From: an uncultured Rivularia sp.
Lineage (GTDB): Bacteria > Cyanobacteriota > Cyanobacteriia > Cyanobacteriales > Nostocaceae
Assembly: GCA_963665115.1 (NCBI GenBank)
Contig: OY762007.1
Location: forward strand, 2,432,001 to 2,496,000
Direction of reading: 5' to 3'
DNA length: 64,000 nt
Shown here in pieces: positions 50,172 to 60,287 of this stretch. Made by a program: the position numbers and the translations under genes. The notes beneath the pieces were generated by a model, which ran no database searches, had not been told where the DNA came from, and saw only the letters and a program-made list of their open reading frames with translations. Position 1 is the stretch's first letter. Each line of letters begins with the position of its first letter.

Positions 50172-51067
50172 CTATTCCCTTCCTATCATCTCTTGAATAA
50201 ACCCAGGTAAAGCAAAAGCAGCTTTATGAATATCTGCATTGTAATAGCGTAAATTATGTTCTTTAACAAATTGAGTGGCTTTTTTTGAATCCAAATTATC
50301 AACGGGATGCTTGCCTTGTTTGGAACAATAAGTTAAACTCCACATTCCGGTAGGATACATGGGAATAAATACTAAATAACAATGTACCGAATCATTGCCA
50401 AAAACTTGTTTGAGACATTGATTTAAATCTGTAAAAGCCTTTTGATGAAAGATTGGTGATTCGCTTTGTACCGTTACTACTCCACCAACACGGAGACAGC
50501 GATATACATCTTGATAAAACGATTTAGTAAATAATCCTTCTGATGGTCCCCTACGGGATCTGAAGAATCAATTATTACTAAGTCATAGGAATTATCGGCG
50601 GCATTTTTAACAAATTCAATCCCGTCATCTATGAGTAAATTTAACTTTGAATGTTCTAAAGCTGAAGAAATAGTAGGTAAAAATTGCTTGGAAGCACGCA
50701 CCACCGCTTCATCAATTTCCACCATTGTGATTCGCTCAATTCCTTGGTGGCGAACTAATTCGCGAATCGTTCCCCCATCTCCAGCGCCAATTACCAGCAC
50801 ATCTTTGACATCGGGATGAGTCAACATTGGGACATGAGCAATCATCTCGTGATAAGCCGCTTCATCCGCTTCGGTACACATCACCATCCGATCGATAGTC
50901 AGCATTTTCCCTCTGTCGTGAGTATCAAATACTTCTACAGTTTGAAAGGGAGAGACTTCATGAAAAAGCCTTTCTCCTTTTAAACGAATAGATATAGCAA
51001 AATTTCCATTGCTATCTGTTACCCATTCGGTTGAACTGATTTTATTGGGTTGTTCTGAAATGGTCAT
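50172..51067 (-). CDS. speE: Spermidine synthase (indel at GGGG ~50549, probable error)
   Basis: SPFQ, DEAAYHEMIAH, VLVIGAGDGG, VEID, DSSDPVG then PSEGLF...QSESP after correction, YPTGMWS, YYNADIHKAAFALP. Confidence 0.9.
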
Positions 51068-51386
51068 TTCAATTTTGGATTTCGGATTTTGGATTTTAGA
51101 TTTTGGATTGTTCTCTGTTCCCATACTTCAAATAAAATATGTGAGAACAACTGTAGATGCGTGGTAGATTACGAATGCACCAACCAGGGATTAAGTATAT
51201 GATTTTATGGTGATTGATTCAATAGTTTTCTTTTTATAAAACGGGAAAATACAAAAAAATATTTGAGCCTAAATAAAAAAAGATGATTTATCAAATTGTA
51301 AACTTATAAATAAAATTTGATGATTTTTTTAAATAAAATATTTAATTTGCCTTTCAACTAAAAACTATTTATTACTATGAGTTCTA

Positions 51387-55407: not shown

Positions 55408-55691
55408 TCGTCTGACAGCGTTTGCACCGATATATGGAATTTGCGCGGTTAATTACATGATTCCCAAAATGCAACTCAGAATTGTCATTATTTTTAACGA
55501 ATTACCTCTTTAGGGCTACTTTTTCGGCTATTTACATCCGCTGAATTAACCTAACGTTCAATATTTCAGCACTGTGGCGACTTACACAAAAATGATTTTT
55601 CCCCTTGTCGTATCGTTCCCCGTTGTTGCATCTGCCATCGATAAAGTATCATGCAACAAATAACTATTACGGCTCTGTCACCTCTAATTTT

Positions 55692-55985
55692 ATGGATAAC
55701 AATATAAGAATTTGGTTCATTTGCTTCGTAGTGCTATTTGCTTTATCACAGCTATTCGATTGGGTACAGCAGCTTTATTTACCTTTACCTATCTATATTT
55801 TAGGTGGAGCATTTTTGGCAGTTGCTTCAAATTATGAAAAGCTTTTCGGTAGTTATCTGGGCGAATATTCAGGTGAAAATAATACTCAACAGCAATTAGA
55901 TGCTGCTTCTCAACCTGAAGTATCAAGCTATGAGGATGCTTATCAATCTGAGGAAGTTGAAGAATTAGAGATTAGGGAATTGTAA
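55692..55985 (+). CDS. Small membrane hypothetical protein
   Basis: RIWFICFVVLFALSQLFDW...PLPIYILGGAFLAVASN, acidic tail. Confidence 0.65.
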   Translation: MDNNIRIWFICFVVLFALSQLFDWVQQLYLPLPIYILGGAFLAVASNYEKLFGSYLGEYSGENNTQQQLDAASQPEVSSYEDAYQSEEVEELEIREL

Positions 55986-56010: not shown

Positions 56011-56361
56011 TTATTTAGCTTTGTTTATGTAAGAAATATATTCAACAAAACAAAATCCAGCGACTAAACCAGTAATTACCGCACCAATAATTACTCCTTT
56101 CATTAGACTAAATTTTCTTTGTCTTTTACAGCTTAGAATTAAAGGAATAACGTATAAAAGTTGATATAACCATACAGCACTAATACCGAGAGCAAGAGGT
56201 TCGTATCCTCTACCGAGCGGCAAATTAGAATTATCTGCTAGAAAAGCAAAAAAATACATTCCTAAAATACTAAGAATAAAGTTAGTTGATAATACTAATA
56301 AAATTCCCCCGATAATTGTCAACCAATCGTTACTGCGAGGATTAGGATTTCTGTTTGACAT
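56011..56361 (-). CDS. Small 3-TM membrane protein, paralogue B (C-terminal G-x-C)
   Basis: QLLYVIP...KRQRK...KGVIIGAVITGLVAGFCF; 12 bp after paralogue A. Confidence 0.8.
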   Translation of the reverse strand: MSNRNPNPRSNDWLTIIGGILLVLSTNFILSILGMYFFAFLADNSNLPLGRGYEPLALGISAVWLYQLLYVIPLILSCKRQRKFSLMKGVIIGAVITGLVAGFCFVEYISYINKAK

Positions 56362-56373
56362 GGTTTTATTCTG

Positions 56374-56679
56374 TCAACGTATAAATATCAAAAAGCAGCC
56401 ACCATTTACTAACGCTGTAATTACTGCACCAATAATTACTCCTTTTACGATGAAATTATTGCGTTTACGTTTAAGCCAAATACAAACTGGAATTACGTAT
56501 AGCAGTTGCAATAGGAACAATCCGCCAAGCGCAAAGAAAAAACCTAAAATGGTATAGCCACCATAAATCATCTGTAAAATATAGCTAATCACAAATATTA
56601 TTAAGATTGCTAAAGCGTGCATTCCAATTAGTAATAAGAGGCCTTGAATAACTCCCCTAATTTCATTTTGTTGCGACAT
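56374..56679 (-). CDS. Small 3-TM membrane protein, paralogue A (C-terminal G-x-C)
   Basis: QLLYVIP...KRKR...KGVIIGAVITALVNGGCF; 22 bp after the radical SAM gene. Confidence 0.8.
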   Translation of the reverse strand: MSQQNEIRGVIQGLLLLIGMHALAILIIFVISYILQMIYGGYTILGFFFALGGLFLLQLLYVIPVCIWLKRKRNNFIVKGVIIGAVITALVNGGCFLIFIR

Positions 56680-56701
56680 AGTTATTTAGTTAAACTGATT
56701 A

Positions 56702-58114
56702 TTAATTCCGATTATTAACTAAATCATACCCCGCGCTACCTTCGCGATAAAACATATTAAAAGTATCAAAAGGAATAATTCTACCGTCGGGGTGTACGAT
56801 GTGAATGCAGGAACGTTTTACCGATCGCACATCAAAGTTAAAAGGATCGAGAAACTGCACAACCATCACCCGAAAGATATTTGAATAATTCAATCCTGCG
56901 GGTACGTTAACCATCGGCAAACAACACAAAAGCTGTTTTAATGAAGTTGCAGCGGAAGCTGGTGAATGACTTGTAGAAAACAACTCAAAAATCTTACTTT
57001 TTAACTCTTCATTCTGTTCGTAAAGTACGCTATTTGGCATCATTTCCACAAACGCTTCCGGATTAACTAATCCAGTTAAAGGTATTACTTTACCATTCAG
57101 TTTCAATGCATATCCCATAGCCAAACAATCGGGATGACAGGGAACCGGAAGAATATCTTCTGGTTTAAAATATGGACTTTGTTCTAAAATAGATCTGCGA
57201 ACTTCTGTAAGCGTATATCTATCAGTTTTCGGGTTAAATCCTGACAATCTTCCCGCAGCTTGTATCGGTTGAAAAGTTACACCGCGAACGCATTTTTGCT
57301 GCAATCCGTATTCGATGATTTTACCGATTTCACCGTCATTTAAACCTTTTTTGACGGTAACAACCAAAGTTGTAGAAATATTATATTTATTTAGTTGCGC
57401 GATCGCCTTTTCTCTGACAATTCGCAAATCCGCTCCCCGCAACTCTTGTAGAGCTTCCGCTTCAAAGCTATCAAACTGTAAATATATCTCAATTCCCGGT
57501 ATATATTGGGAAAGACGCTCGCAAAAAGCTTTATCTTGAGCAATTCTCACACCGTTAGTATTAATCATCAAATGCTTTATCGGTTTGCTTTTGACAATAT
57601 CTAATATTTCAAAAAACTCAGGATGAATAGTAGGCTCACCACCGCTCAACTGCACAATTTGCGGTTCCCCTTCATTTTCTACAACCGCATCAATCATGCT
57701 TTCAATTAGTTTTAAACTGCGATGTTTTCGAGGTTGATGGGAATCCGAAAACTCTTCCACACCAGAATCAGCATAACAAATTGGGCAAGAAAGATTGCAT
57801 TTATCAGTAACTTCGATTAAAGTCAAACAGCTATGTTGTTCGTGATCTGGACAAAGCCCGCAATCGTAAGGACAACCGTATTTTATTGGTGTATTAAACC
57901 GTCTGGGAATATCACCCGGCTTAATAAACTCCAGACACTTTTTATAATATTCAATATCGTCAGCAATTAAAACCTCTTCCCTTCCATGAGTGGGACAATG
58001 TTTAACTAAATAAACATAATCATCCTGAAAAATAATTTTTGCTTCCACCTTAACAAGACACTTTGAACAAACACTATTAGTCAAAGCATAGAAAAGATAA
58101 TTACGACTAGGCAT
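56702..58114 (-). CDS. Radical SAM enzyme, MJ0619/Tes (GDGT-MAS)-like architecture
   Basis: CSKC..CPTH, CPYDCGLCPDH, CNLSCPIC, SGGEPT, NTNG, YLQFD, FQP, PCHPDC, FLDPFNFDV..VKRSCIH..PDGRIIPF. Confidence 0.85.
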   Translation of the reverse strand: MPSRNYLFYALTNSVCSKCLVKVEAKIIFQDDYVYLVKHCPTHGREEVLIADDIEYYKKCLEFIKPGDIPRRFNTPIKYGCPYDCGLCPDHEQHSCLTLIEVTDKCNLSCPICYADSGVEEFSDSHQPRKHRSLKLIESMIDAVVENEGEPQIVQLSGGEPTIHPEFFEILDIVKSKPIKHLMINTNGVRIAQDKAFCERLSQYIPGIEIYLQFDSFEAEALQELRGADLRIVREKAIAQLNKYNISTTLVVTVKKGLNDGEIGKIIEYGLQQKCVRGVTFQPIQAAGRLSGFNPKTDRYTLTEVRRSILEQSPYFKPEDILPVPCHPDCLAMGYALKLNGKVIPLTGLVNPEAFVEMMPNSVLYEQNEELKSKIFELFSTSHSPASAATSLKQLLCCLPMVNVPAGLNYSNIFRVMVVQFLDPFNFDVRSVKRSCIHIVHPDGRIIPFDTFNMFYREGSAGYDLVNNRN

Positions 58115-58286
58115 GGATAAAAGTTAGGAGTTAGGAGTTAGGAGTTAGGAGTTGGGGATGGCGCATCGGGCATGGGGCATAGTTAAGAGTTAGGAATTAA
58201 GAGTTAGGAATGTAGTGGGAGCGTCTCGCTCCCTTGAAAAAAATTCCCTGCCCCTCTCCCCCATCTCCCCCTCCCCATCAGCTTCC

Positions 58287-58856
58287 CTACTCCTTCTCCC
58301 CATTTGAGACAAGCTCTGAAAGTATATTTCCGGTCAAATCTAAAAGCTGATCTAGTAATAATCCGATAGCACCAATACAGATTATACCTTCAATAATGTC
58401 ATCAACTTTACTTTGTTTATAAGCATTCCAAATGATAAAACCTAGCCCTTGATTAAGAGTCAACATTTCTATGGCGATCGCACTAAACCAAGCAATCCAA
58501 ACTGCAAATCTTAAACCCTCAAATATATGGTTAATTACTAATCTAAAGTTTCTTCCTTGTTTACGTCCATGTCGTATTCCTTTAGCAGTATTAAGAATAA
58601 TTGACCAAATGGCGCTAAAGAAAACAATTACAATTGCCGCAGCTTCAGCTTCTTTAAAAATGATTAGGGCAATCGGCAGTAAAGCGATAGGAACAATAGT
58701 ATTTGGTACTTGAAGTATCCATTTACATATTTGATAAATAATTCTATTTAAACCAATTAAATAGCCAATCAAAATACCTAAAACAACAGCAGAAATATAG
58801 CCAACAAGTAATAATTGCAAGCTAGATAAAAGATTAAAAAAAATACTTCGTTCCAT
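58287..58856 (-). CDS. NrtB/SsuC-like ABC permease-type membrane protein, shortened
   Basis: GILIGYLIG, IVPIALLPIAL, W.IILNTA.G, IFEGLR, AW...IAIEML..GLGFIIWNAY, IGLLLD. Confidence 0.7.
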   Translation of the reverse strand: MERSIFFNLLSSLQLLLVGYISAVVLGILIGYLIGLNRIIYQICKWILQVPNTIVPIALLPIALIIFKEAEAAAIVIVFFSAIWSIILNTAKGIRHGRKQGRNFRLVINHIFEGLRFAVWIAWFSAIAIEMLTLNQGLGFIIWNAYKQSKVDDIIEGIICIGAIGLLLDQLLDLTGNILSELVSNGEKE

Positions 58857-58859
58857 TAT

Positions 58860-59609
58860 TTAAGATTTTATGCGGAACATTTTAGGGATAGTGCGACGAT
58901 AATACAAAATTGCCATGAGACAAGCTGTTTGAATTGCACTTAATCCTAAAAAGGCATGAAAATCTGGTTTAATAAAATCTATCAGGAAGCGAAAGGTTAA
59001 ATAAGAGATGAAATAAAATTGAAATAAATCGCCTTGTTGGTAGTTATAGCGACTGCGAAACCGTATAAATATAGCTAAAACAATTAAAAAAATAATTTCA
59101 TATAGCTGCGTTGGATGTCGTGAAATGCCATCGCCAAAATCTATACCCCAAGGTAAATTGGTCGCAATTCCGTAAGTTTTATCGCTCAAACCAGTTAAAA
59201 AACAGCCAATTCTACCGATAGCAGTTCCCGCAATTAAAGGGTAAACAAATACGTCACCAGTTGACTGCTTGACACCGATAATTTTTTTAGTAATTTCTAC
59301 ACCAATTAATCCACCCAACAAAGCACCGACAACAGTTTTACCCTGCAAAAATAGGAATAAAAATTGTTGTCTATCTTGCCATAATAAATTAATGTGCTGT
59401 AGTAAAACCAGCAACTTCGCACCCAACAAAGCCCCTAACATTCCACCTACAACCACAGAAGAACGTTGAGTCGTAGAAATCGAATCTTGACGAACATTAC
59501 GCAACATCAAACGAAACGCCACAGTATAAGCCAAAGACTCGAATAAAATATGTGGATGAATTTTAAAAAAGCCAAGAGAAATATAAATTGGGAATTGGGA
59601 ATTAGGCAT
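58860..59609 (-). CDS. Prolipoprotein diacylglyceryl transferase (Lgt)-family paralogue
   Basis: GAKL, GRIGCFLTG, LPWG, RHPTQLYE, Y..FRFLIDFIK. Confidence 0.85.
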   Translation of the reverse strand: MPNSQFPIYISLGFFKIHPHILFESLAYTVAFRLMLRNVRQDSISTTQRSSVVVGGMLGALLGAKLLVLLQHINLLWQDRQQFLFLFLQGKTVVGALLGGLIGVEITKKIIGVKQSTGDVFVYPLIAGTAIGRIGCFLTGLSDKTYGIATNLPWGIDFGDGISRHPTQLYEIIFLIVLAIFIRFRSRYNYQQGDLFQFYFISYLTFRFLIDFIKPDFHAFLGLSAIQTACLMAILYYRRTIPKMFRIKS

Positions 59610-59690
59610 TGGGCATTGGTAATTGGTAATTGGTAATTAGTAATTTTCCCCTTGTCTCCTTGTCCCCCCCATCCCCCCATCCCCCATCTC

Positions 59691-60287
59691 TTATTTCCCC
59701 ATCTTCCGTTTCATCTCATCCAACTCTGCTTCAGTTTCCCAACGAAGGAATTTTTCTTCTAAATCATCGTAGGTGTTAGAACTGGAGTTAGGATTAGAAT
59801 AGGTGCTACTTGCGCTCCACCAGCCAGTATCTGTGTCCATACGTTGTTGTGATTGAGCTTTTGTACGTGCTGCTTGCGCTTGTGTGGCTTTGGTTTGTAC
59901 TTCTTGTCGCCGTAATTGAATTTTTCGATATAATTCTTTGGCTTGGGTAATGCGTTCTTTTACACCTTGCATTTGCCCCCAAAGCTGGTTGCCTTGTCGC
60001 AATAATGCTGCTTCTCTTTCTTCCGCTTTTGCCGCTAAATCTTCTCTGCGAGCATTTTTCGCTTTTTGTACGCGGATATGCCATCTTTGGATTTCTTGCG
60101 CTGTAGACAATACTTCGTCTTGCTTGCGCTTTTCCTGTAGCTGCAAATCTGCGATTAATTTTAGAGTATCTTCTTCCTGCTCCCGTAACTGCTCCAATAG
60201 CGCATCTAGTTCCAAATGCGGGTTATTCCGCAGGAATTCTTCCAAACGACTTTCCAGAAACTTGCTCAAATCGTCAAATAAGCCCAC
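59691..60287 (-). CDS. Cyanobacterial PspA/IM30-like coiled-coil protein (TIGR04376-type)
   Basis: MGLFDDLSKFLESRLEEFL amphipathic N-terminus, W..R..KA...REDLA..A, DDLEEKF..WE.EAELDEMK. Confidence 0.75.
   Translation of the reverse strand: MGLFDDLSKFLESRLEEFLRNNPHLELDALLEQLREQEEDTLKLIADLQLQEKRKQDEVLSTAQEIQRWHIRVQKAKNARREDLAAKAEEREAALLRQGNQLWGQMQGVKERITQAKELYRKIQLRRQEVQTKATQAQAARTKAQSQQRMDTDTGWWSASSTYSNPNSSSNTYDDLEEKFLRWETEAELDEMKRKMGK

What the first reader, a model, noticed from the sequence alone, without database searches (positions are those of the whole stretch)
56011..60287. Candidate undescribed lipidation/lipid-crosslinking system: Tes/GDGT-MAS-like radical SAM + Lgt paralogue + Cys-tailed small membrane proteins
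Seen: six co-oriented genes (PspA-like, Lgt-like, permease-like, radical SAM, two small paralogues). Gaps are 3, 22 and 12 bp at three junctions, and mostly repeat DNA at the other two. Established: the motif string CxxC..CxxH / CPxxCGLCxxH / CxxxCxxC / F.D..NFD..R..C.H...DGRIIPF is the layout of the MJ0619 family (Tes, GDGT-MAS), which joins lipid chain termini by C-C bonds in archaea. Lgt transfers diacylglyceryl from phosphatidylglycerol to a Cys thiol. Cyanobacteria are not known for tetraether lipids. Inference: the dedicated Lgt lipidates the small proteins on their conserved Cys, and the radical SAM enzyme couples or cyclises acyl tails, giving a membrane-spanning or macrocyclic lipid anchor, possibly linked to PspA-type membrane stress.
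Basis: partly seen in the sequence, partly recalled or inferred. Interest (0 to 1): 0.88.

Follow-up and report, generated by a model that had tools for sequence, protein, structure and literature searches.

The report
Lgt paralogue, Tes-like enzyme, cysteine miniproteins
Four of these six genes form a three-part set that recurs across many bacterial phyla (an altered spare copy of the enzyme that lipid-anchors proteins, a relative of the archaeal tail-joining enzyme that lacks that enzyme's invariant C-terminal cysteines, and small membrane proteins with one conserved cysteine), and it likely attaches a chemically remodelled lipid to those small proteins.

Summary
The six ORFs, gaps and motifs are real, but only four genes belong together. 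The Lgt paralogue, the Tes/GDGT-MAS-like radical SAM and the two G-x-C membrane proteins form a cross-phylum module. The paralogue flanks the enzyme in 66 of 80 loci. It occurs in 18 of the 19 enzyme-bearing genomes and in none of 182 others, and is fused to the enzyme in 17 proteins. The PspA-like gene (TIGR04376, 151 of 151 genomes) and the permease are host genes, so the PspA link fails. The enzyme has the GDGT-MAS fold but lies outside the Tes clade. Two of three Tes-invariant C-terminal cysteines are absent in all 116 members and the third is variable. These are the inferred ligands of the cluster used for C-C coupling, so tail welding is now the weaker reading. Best guess (0.5, untested): dedicated S-lipidation of a non-canonical Cys box, with a one-radical change to the acyl tail. 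A metalloid-binding rival arises from relatives' neighbours. Ten literature searches found no description. This scan has reported the same trio before on other genomes.

The parts
58860..59609 (-). Lgt paralogue, 249 aa, 7 predicted membrane helices. Keeps the residues equivalent to E. coli R143, R239, E202 and Y235; H103 is replaced by Val, Y26 by His and Y30 by Glu. Core member.
   Evidence: E. coli residues from PMC4728403 passages
56702..58114 (-). Tes/GDGT-MAS-like radical SAM, 470 aa. Keeps the rubredoxin-like, N-terminal auxiliary and CxxxCxxC motifs; lacks the Tes C-terminal cysteine set; invariant C96, C326, C397-C398 and C436. Core member.
56921..56926 (-). Vicinal Cys397-Cys398 in a loop the model predicts poorly; 115 of 116 clade members, not conserved in Tes.
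56374..56679 (-). Small membrane protein A, 101 aa: basic loop, last helix, N-G-G-C95 (codon 56395-56397), short hydrophobic tail. Predicted acceptor. Core member.
56011..56361 (-). Small membrane protein B, 116 aa, paralogue of A (36% identity), A-G-F-C104 (codon 56050-56052). Core member.
59691..60287 (-). TIGR04376 family coiled-coil protein (weakly PspA-like). Co-located host gene, not a member.
58287..58856 (-). Lone ABC permease (PF00528, NtrB-like). Co-located host gene that sits beside TIGR04376 in relatives lacking the module; not a member.
58115..58286 (.). Intergenic short tandem repeats; not specific to the module.
59586..59690 (.). Short tandem repeats that run into the first codons of the Lgt paralogue.

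Best explanation
The Lgt paralogue, the radical SAM enzyme and the small G-x-C membrane proteins are inherited as one module, which likely S-lipidates the small proteins with a remodelled lipid. Step 1 (inferred): the radical SAM sits on the cytoplasmic face, tethered to or fused behind the Lgt paralogue, and makes a single radical change to an acyl tail of a phospholipid, most plausibly a carbon-heteroatom (C-S) bond or a desaturation, rather than the two-radical C-C weld of GDGT-MAS. Step 2 (inferred): the paralogue transfers the diacylglyceryl group from that phospholipid onto the Cys that ends an inside-to-outside helix, a box that ordinary Lgt and signal peptidase II would probably not read. 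The product would be an uncleaved, lipid-modified small membrane protein whose job is not known. Shown: the linkage, fusion, folds, residue patterns and phylogeny. Not shown: any chemistry, binding or expression.
For: Linkage: paralogue within about 4 kb in 66 of 80 GTDB loci, 64 of them upstream on the same strand; 5 of the 14 negatives have under 700 bp upstream. For 7 of 9 further negatives tested, the genome holds a paralogue-level hit. In 201 genomes of the window's phylum the enzyme is in 19 and the paralogue in 18, all among the 19; the small-protein profile hits 8, all among the 19. Fusions: 17 of 21 long Lgt hits carry PF01790+PF23545+PF04055, with Lgt first in the three read. E. coli Lgt has 7 helices and a periplasmic N-terminal strand (PMC4728403), so a fused enzyme would be cytoplasmic. 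Small proteins: a motif detector fires in 56 of 75 loci against 15 of 300 random windows of the own genome and 4 of 75 on the opposite strand. A profile built without the Cys region finds the Cys in 23 of 25 new members; 118 of 119 scorable database homologues carry it. Last K/R to Cys is a median 18 residues, against 16 in 43 own-genome lipoprotein-like ORFs; basic residues lie before the helix (3.3 against 0.4 after the Cys); only 2 of 94 match the canonical lipobox. Lgt pocket residues R133, R207 and Y203 are 74 of 74 and E171 71 of 74; the model matches only 5AZB (TM 0.59). Against C-C welding: Tes-invariant Cys positions (24 of 24) hold Cys in 54, 0 and 0 of 116. In 80 metagenome loci not picked by Lgt, an Lgt-like gene flanks 20 of 20 well-flanked triad-less enzymes and 4 of 18 triad-keeping ones, and the triad was lost at least twice within the Lgt-linked branch.
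Against: No chemistry was tested. The paralogue lacks H103, Y26, N146 and E151; H103, Y26 and E151 mutants are inactive in E. coli Lgt (PMC4728403), so it may not transfer lipid at all. Six of the nine other Lgt-family proteins aligned also lack His there, which softens this. The residues after the Cys are hydrophobic (mean hydropathy +1.6 against -1.1 in lipoproteins), so the Cys may be buried rather than at the interface. One of 19 genomes (95% complete) and two MAGs have the enzyme without a paralogue hit; the small-protein detector misses 19 of 75 loci. That the three lost cysteines ligate the C-terminal cluster is my inference: the passages I read name only Met439. The new cysteines (C326, C436, C397/C398) lie next to the old positions and could rebuild a cluster; residues 362-405 are under pLDDT 50. 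Some Lgt-linked relatives keep the triad (L224, L280, L296). Genomes sampled are kin, so counts overstate independence.
Confidence: 0.5

Rival explanations
1. One reading: the radical SAM joins two acyl tails by a C-C bond, as GDGT-MAS does, giving a macrocyclic or membrane-spanning lipid anchor on the small protein, using a rewired C-terminal cluster.
For: Whole-chain fold match to 7TOM (TM 0.80; Z 44.6 over 408 residues, rmsd 3.0). Met at the Met439 position in 70 of 116, and M439A and Y459 variants of GDGT-MAS stay active (PMC9433317). Invariant C326 and C436 neighbour the old positions. GrsA/B are said to form C-C bonds without an auxiliary cluster (PMC11186832).
Against: Outside the Tes clade; below the Tes cut-off (277 against 450 bits); Tes triad lost; about 55 residues shorter, with deletions in the C-terminal region. 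Tes homologues were found in only 3 of 14 iso-diabolic-acid-producing Acidobacteria and in none of the other producers screened (PMC13159169).
Confidence: 0.18
2. The retained cysteines bind a soft metalloid such as As(III) or Se, and the enzyme makes a carbon-metalloid bond (an organoarsenic or similar lipid), which the Lgt-like protein hands to the small protein's Cys or exports.
For: In ArsL a Cys-Cys motif binds arsenite rather than an Fe-S cluster (bioRxiv 2024.02.01.577332); this clade has an invariant C-C in a flexible loop. 28 of 34 triad-keeping relatives sit by a DVU_1556/ArsM-like methyltransferase, and 4 of the neighbours scanned are MerA-like reductases. ArsP-like permeases occur in L224, L226 and L248 and an arsenic efflux protein in L223.
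Against: No arsenic or mercury family among 65 hand-picked neighbours of the window's own clade. ArsP, ICMT and DUF4395 queries hit none of the 80 clade loci or the own genome. The methyltransferases score under their family cut-offs.
Confidence: 0.12
3. The Lgt-like protein is not a transferase but a membrane anchor that presents phospholipid to the radical SAM; the small proteins are subunits or sulfur donors and the product is a free modified lipid.
For: H103, Y26, N146 and E151 positions changed; new invariant E105, K108, G118 and D119 lie at the predicted cytoplasmic end of helix 3; natural fusions. When the module splits, the small genes stayed beside the enzyme in L013, L019, L021, L025, L032, L079 and L101.
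Against: The outward pocket (R133, R207, E171, Y203, H165) is kept and a new invariant H20/E24 pair could serve as base (inference). The Cys is predicted on the outer side, away from the enzyme. Small genes followed the paralogue in L104 and L113.
Confidence: 0.12
4. A ribosomal lipopeptide pathway: after lipidation the protein is cut before the Cys, releasing a short lipopeptide that the radical SAM tailors.
For: Tandem, variable paralogues (up to three per locus) with short tails (median 8 residues). A sister lineage adds an ICMT-family methyltransferase (8 loci), reminiscent of the eukaryotic CaaX route (recalled).
Against: Only 2 of 94 boxes are canonical and the -1 residue is often bulky; no recurrent protease or exporter among 65 neighbours; the fold is GDGT-MAS-like, not SPASM-like.
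Confidence: 0.08

Closest known systems
GDGT-MAS / tetraether synthase Tes (M. jannaschii MJ0619; PDB 7TOL, 7TOM; NCBIfam NF045702)
   Same: Fold over the whole chain (TM 0.80, Z 44.6); rubredoxin-like, N-terminal cluster and CxxxCxxC motifs (ligands from PMC9433317).
   Different: Separate clade; 277 bits against a cut-off of 450; Tes C-terminal Cys triad lost, Tyr459 replaced by Ile, about 55 residues shorter, new invariant cysteines. No Lgt-paralogue hit beside any of 24 true Tes loci (1.5-kb flanks).
Prolipoprotein diacylglyceryl transferase Lgt (E. coli; PDB 5AZB; PF01790)
   Same: Seven-helix fold; R143, R239, E202, Y235 and the HP motif kept.
   Different: A second copy beside a housekeeping Lgt; below all NCBIfam Lgt cut-offs; HGGL replaced by a K-T-V/I-V-G-type segment; Y26, N146 and E151 changed; putative acceptors have internal, non-canonical boxes; linked and fused to a radical SAM.
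TrsS radical SAM (seleno)protein (NF045646) and methyltransferase-linked Tes-like enzymes
   Same: Best NCBIfam score, full length (313 bits); the related enzymes share C96, C326 and C436.
   Different: Below the cut-off of 490; those relatives keep the triad and sit beside DVU_1556-like methyltransferases rather than Lgt.
Bacterial membrane-spanning-lipid synthase Mss
   Same: A bacterial radical SAM that joins acyl tails (PMC13159169).
   Different: Described as only remotely related to Tes and confined to anaerobes; many hosts here are genera I recall as aerobic (names). I did not compare sequences with Mss.

Membership tests
Tes / GDGT-MAS | NCBIfam NF045702 score at or above 450 bits | tested here: not met
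   277 bits; five other clade members 219-245 bits
Tes / GDGT-MAS | Rubredoxin-like, N-terminal auxiliary and radical SAM metal motifs | tested here: met
   each 116 of 116; ligands listed in PMC9433317
Tes / GDGT-MAS | Three invariant C-terminal cysteines (inferred ligands of the cluster that holds the first radical) | tested here: not met
   Tes 24 of 24 at each; clade 54, 0 and 0 of 116; the window protein has C, S, D. Ligand role inferred, not read from the structure.
Tes / GDGT-MAS | Met439 and Tyr459, invariant in archaeal homologues | tested here: not met
   V419 and I439 here; Met 70 of 116, Ile 111 of 116; both residues are dispensable in vitro
Tes / GDGT-MAS | Groups with Tes in a tree | tested here: not met
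   39 rows form one branch (SH-aLRT 99) apart from 14 Tes and 15 acidobacterial Tes-like rows; quick trees, midpoint root
Tes / GDGT-MAS | Two hydrophobic lipid pockets | tested here: inconclusive
   fold matches but residues 362-405 are low confidence and no pocket could be measured
Tes / GDGT-MAS | C-C coupling of lipid tails | not testable with these tools
   needs an assay
Lgt (PF01790 superfamily) | Pfam score and seven-helix fold | tested here: met
   103 bits; pLDDT 94, only match 5AZB at E 6.5e-7
Housekeeping Lgt | R143 and R239 | tested here: met
   R133 and R207, 74 of 74
Housekeeping Lgt | H103 of HGGL, Y26, N146 and E151; equivalog cut-offs | tested here: not met
   V94, H20, C136 and no Glu; TIGR00544 59 bits against 118.9
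Housekeeping Lgt | Diacylglyceryl transfer to a Cys thiol | not testable with these tools
   needs an assay
Canonical prolipoprotein | N-terminal signal with [LVI][ASTVI][GAS]C (pattern recalled) | tested here: not met
   2 of 94 curated small proteins match; the box is mostly C-terminal with Gly at -2
TrsS | NF045646 at or above 490 bits | tested here: not met
   313 bits
PspA/IM30 stress system | PF04012 above cut-off and linkage to the module | tested here: not met
   21 against 33.9 bits; 1 of 80 loci; TIGR04376 in 151 of 151 genomes

The most novel reading that the evidence does not exclude
A previously undescribed post-translational system, spread across at least eight bacterial phyla, in which a tetraether-synthase relative that has traded its C-C-coupling cluster for a new cysteine site writes a heteroatom (sulfur, or a metalloid such as arsenic) or a cross-link into a lipid tail, and a dedicated Lgt installs that lipid on an internal cysteine of small membrane proteins.
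Probability: 0.4. Interest if true: 0.88.

Novelty: categorically new. Interest (0 to 1): 0.72.

Why it matters
Bacterial Tes homologues are unexplained in the papers read and are used to infer which microbes make branched GDGT climate-proxy lipids (PMC8941075, PMC11868695). The window's enzyme matches GDGT-MAS at E 3e-62, the order of the published cut-offs (1e-50), yet belongs to a separate, Lgt-linked clade without the Tes cysteine set, so such screens probably include it wrongly; the cysteine pattern gives a simple filter. If the module works as inferred it would be a new kind of protein lipidation coupled to radical lipid chemistry, testable in E. coli or in named hosts such as Flavobacterium, Paenibacillus or Fischerella with three genes.

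Tried and rejected
Complex prediction of the Lgt paralogue with small protein A gave no answer (score 0.13, mark 0.32). The only RNA run offered held 0.07 of the words; its contigs come from a relative and cover pieces of several genes, which shows neither transcription nor an operon. Promoter and terminator scans were at chance level (13 against 18.2; 3 against 3.2). The ESM Atlas returned only unnamed clusters for protein A; Pfam and NCBIfam gave no family above cut-off for the window's small proteins or, apart from a B-box piece in one, for ten relatives in Pfam and four in NCBIfam. PspA and permease membership rejected. MoaA/SPASM affinity rejected. The careful tree did not finish; both trees are quick trees without bootstrap. 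C136 of the paralogue as a special catalytic thiol was set aside because 5 of 9 other Lgt-family rows have it too. My first detector was too strict and was loosened; eight detector hits judged unrelated were dropped by hand before the box statistics. Distances between cysteines could not be measured because model coordinates are not returned. The C-terminal cluster ligands were not found in the passages or the one readable supplement of PMC9433317; a second, image-only supplement may bear on this. A search for more of the sister lineage in one class gave only the query genome (1 of 10).


Full report
OBSERVATION. Family scans give TIGR04376 for the first gene (269 bits, cut-off 125; PspA only 21 against 33.9), PF01790 for the second (103 bits, below every NCBIfam Lgt cut-off), an NtrB-like ABC permease for the third, PF04055 plus PF23545 for the fourth (TrsS 313 of 490 bits, Tes 277 of 450), and nothing above cut-off for the two small proteins. 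The genome has a second, housekeeping-type Lgt and one copy of the enzyme.

WHAT TRAVELS TOGETHER. An Lgt-paralogue profile hits 66 of the 80, 64 upstream on the same strand; 5 of the 14 negatives have under 700 bp upstream. Of the other 9, 7 genomes hold a paralogue-level hit, several just beyond the flank, and 2 MAGs do not. In an even sample of 201 genomes of the window's phylum the enzyme is in 19, the paralogue in 18 of those 19 and in none of the other 182, and the small-protein profile in 8, all among the 19. Of 21 long Lgt-like proteins, 17 carry Lgt, zinc-ribbon and radical SAM domains and one more carries the first two. One plasmid record read shows the same gene order. Kin are not independent, so these counts show pattern, not probability.

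WHAT DOES NOT. TIGR04376 is in 151 of 151 genomes of the order, where the enzyme is in 16. It lies beside the permease with no module gene between in six loci (L208-L213), and it appears in 1 and the permease in 0 of the 80 loci. The arrangement is old in some cyanobacteria (TIGR04376-lgt-permease in L103; lgt-permease-enzyme in L214), and three related genomes keep only a short lgt remnant before the permease (L215-L217). The PspA stress link has no support.

THE SMALL PROTEINS. They come from several unrelated-looking scaffolds but share a basic loop, a hydrophobic helix and a Cys with mostly Gly two places before it; the helix is usually last, first in some Acidobacteriota-type loci, and signal-like in one deep-branching group of the window's phylum. 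The detector fires in 56 of 75 loci with at least 700 bp downstream, 15 of 300 random own-genome windows and 4 of 75 opposite strands, two of which look like true members. The Cys is not an artefact of selection: 23 of 25 new members found by a profile without that region have it, as do 118 of 119 scorable proteins among the 120 listed of 213 homologues. In 94 curated cases the last K/R lies a median 18 residues before the Cys (16 in 43 own-genome lipoprotein-like ORFs), basic residues sit before the helix, only 2 boxes are canonical, and the residues after the Cys are hydrophobic. By the positive-inside rule the Cys would lie toward the outer face, where E. coli Lgt has its active site (PMC4728403); this is inference.

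THE LGT PARALOGUE. The model has seven membrane helices (pLDDT 94) and matches only E. coli Lgt. In 74 paralogues the equivalents of R143, R239 and Y235 are invariant and E202 nearly so, but H103 becomes Val, Y26 His and Y30 Glu, E151 is lost, and K91, T92, E105, K108 are new conserved residues. In E. coli, H103, Y26 and E151 mutants are inactive, so transfer activity is not assured; six of nine other Lgt-family rows also lack that His. The H20/E24 pair could replace the base (inference). In fusions the enzyme follows helix 7, which by E. coli topology is cytoplasmic.

THE RADICAL SAM. The model (pLDDT 82) matches GDGT-MAS far above MoaA or SPASM enzymes (TM 0.80; Z 44.6 against 19.6). In GDGT-MAS the first lipid radical is held on a sulfur of the C-terminal cluster (PMC9433317). 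Twenty-four Tes proteins above cut-off have three invariant C-terminal cysteines, mapping to about C338, C455 and C470 of MJ0619, which I infer are that cluster's ligands. In 116 clade members these positions hold Cys 54, 0 and 0 times; C96, C326, C397, C398 and C436 are invariant or nearly so; about 26 residues after PVPC and part of the next helical region are missing. The clade is one branch (SH-aLRT 99) apart from Tes and from 15 acidobacterial Tes-like proteins. Of 21 acidobacterial outgroup loci only L134 has an Lgt-like neighbour, and that enzyme has lost the triad too.

WIDER FAMILY. Eighty metagenome loci picked by similarity to a sister-lineage protein, not by Lgt, test the link. With 1.5 kb on both sides, 20 of 20 triad-less and 4 of 18 triad-keeping enzymes have an Lgt-like gene; over all complete rows, 35 of 43 and 5 of 34. 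A quick tree places most Lgt-linked rows in one 30-row branch (SH-aLRT 90, not strong) that includes triad-keeping members and at least two losses. So the Tes-type site is dispensable for Lgt-linked enzymes, the main reason to prefer one-radical chemistry. The sister lineage has enzyme, ICMT-family methyltransferase, DUF4395, Lgt-like gene and G-x-C small proteins. Of 34 triad-keeping loci, 28 have a DVU_1556/ArsM-like methyltransferase, and ArsP-like, arsenic-efflux and MerA-like genes recur nearby. With the ArsL precedent of a Cys-Cys motif binding arsenite this raises a metalloid rival, but none of these genes accompanies the window's own clade.

MECHANISM AND ODDS. Best: dedicated S-lipidation with a one-radical tail change, 0.5. 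Tail welding 0.18; metalloid chemistry 0.12; non-catalytic Lgt-like anchor 0.12; released lipopeptide 0.08. All chemical steps are inferred.

LITERATURE. Ten searches found no paper describing the module; four that paired radical SAM, GDGT-MAS or its old annotation with Lgt or lipoprotein terms returned zero, and for the rest I saw listings. The library lacks most subscription journals. Read: PMC9433317 (abstract, sections 5 and 8, part 1 of the extended-data legends, passages, one of two supplements); passages only of PMC4728403, PMC8941075, PMC13159169, PMC11868695, PMC13274423, PMC11186832 and bioRxiv 2024.02.01.577332. PMC8941075 reports 456 bacterial Tes homologues of untested function. 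The lipobox pattern, the positive-inside rule as applied here, the CaaX comparison and host aerobiosis are recalled.

EARLIER NOTES. The scan has reported this trio on other genomes. My reading was set before I looked; the notes gave the fusion lead, which I confirmed. In the short excerpts shown I saw no account of the cysteine-set exchange, the methyltransferase-linked relatives or the metalloid rival.

VERDICT. Real, widespread and undescribed in the sources searched; four of six genes belong; mechanism open. Interest 0.72.

Noticed in passing
L222, L225, L226, L227, L190 (ICMT also in L221, L228, L231): A sister module: triad-less Tes-like radical SAM, ICMT-family membrane methyltransferase, DUF4395 protein (fused to the methyltransferase in L226), Lgt-like gene and G-x-C small proteins; L226 adds an ArsP-like permease.
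   Followed up: partly
L230-L294 (28 of 34 triad-keeping loci): Tes-like radical SAMs with both cysteine sets sit beside DVU_1556/ArsM-like methyltransferases, several also beside MerA-like reductases; a possible metalloid-handling system.
   Followed up: partly
L138-L153: Fifteen acidobacterial Tes-like proteins group with archaeal Tes and have no Lgt neighbour; one tested passes the Tes cut-off (568 bits). These, not the Lgt-linked clade, are the better branched-GDGT candidates.
   Followed up: partly
L215-L217: Only the first 30-45 codons of the Lgt paralogue remain upstream of the permease in three related cyanobacteria, consistent with loss of the module.
   Followed up: no
window 59586-59609: The first codons of the Lgt paralogue are made of tandem-repeat DNA, unlike the starts of its homologues; this could affect translation.
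   Followed up: no
window 58287-58856 and L208-L213: A lone 189-aa ABC permease is kept next to TIGR04376 in several genomes of the family; I did not look for its ATPase or binding-protein partners.
   Followed up: partly
window 50172-51124: A spermidine-synthase-like gene (recognised by eye) appears split into two ORFs, 50477-51124 and 50172-50360, suggesting a frameshift.
   Followed up: no
window 55605-55985: The convergent 126-aa ORF has homologues beside the module in 7 of 29 cyanobacterial loci, a synteny marker without a family hit.
   Followed up: no
L014-L018, L020, L081: One deep-branching group of the window's phylum replaces the multi-helix small protein with a 60-70-aa signal-like peptide ending in x-A-C followed by a proline-rich tail with a second Cys.
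   Followed up: no
L066: The module occurs on a contig labelled archaeal, and its enzyme nests among bacterial rows; the binning was not checked.
   Followed up: no
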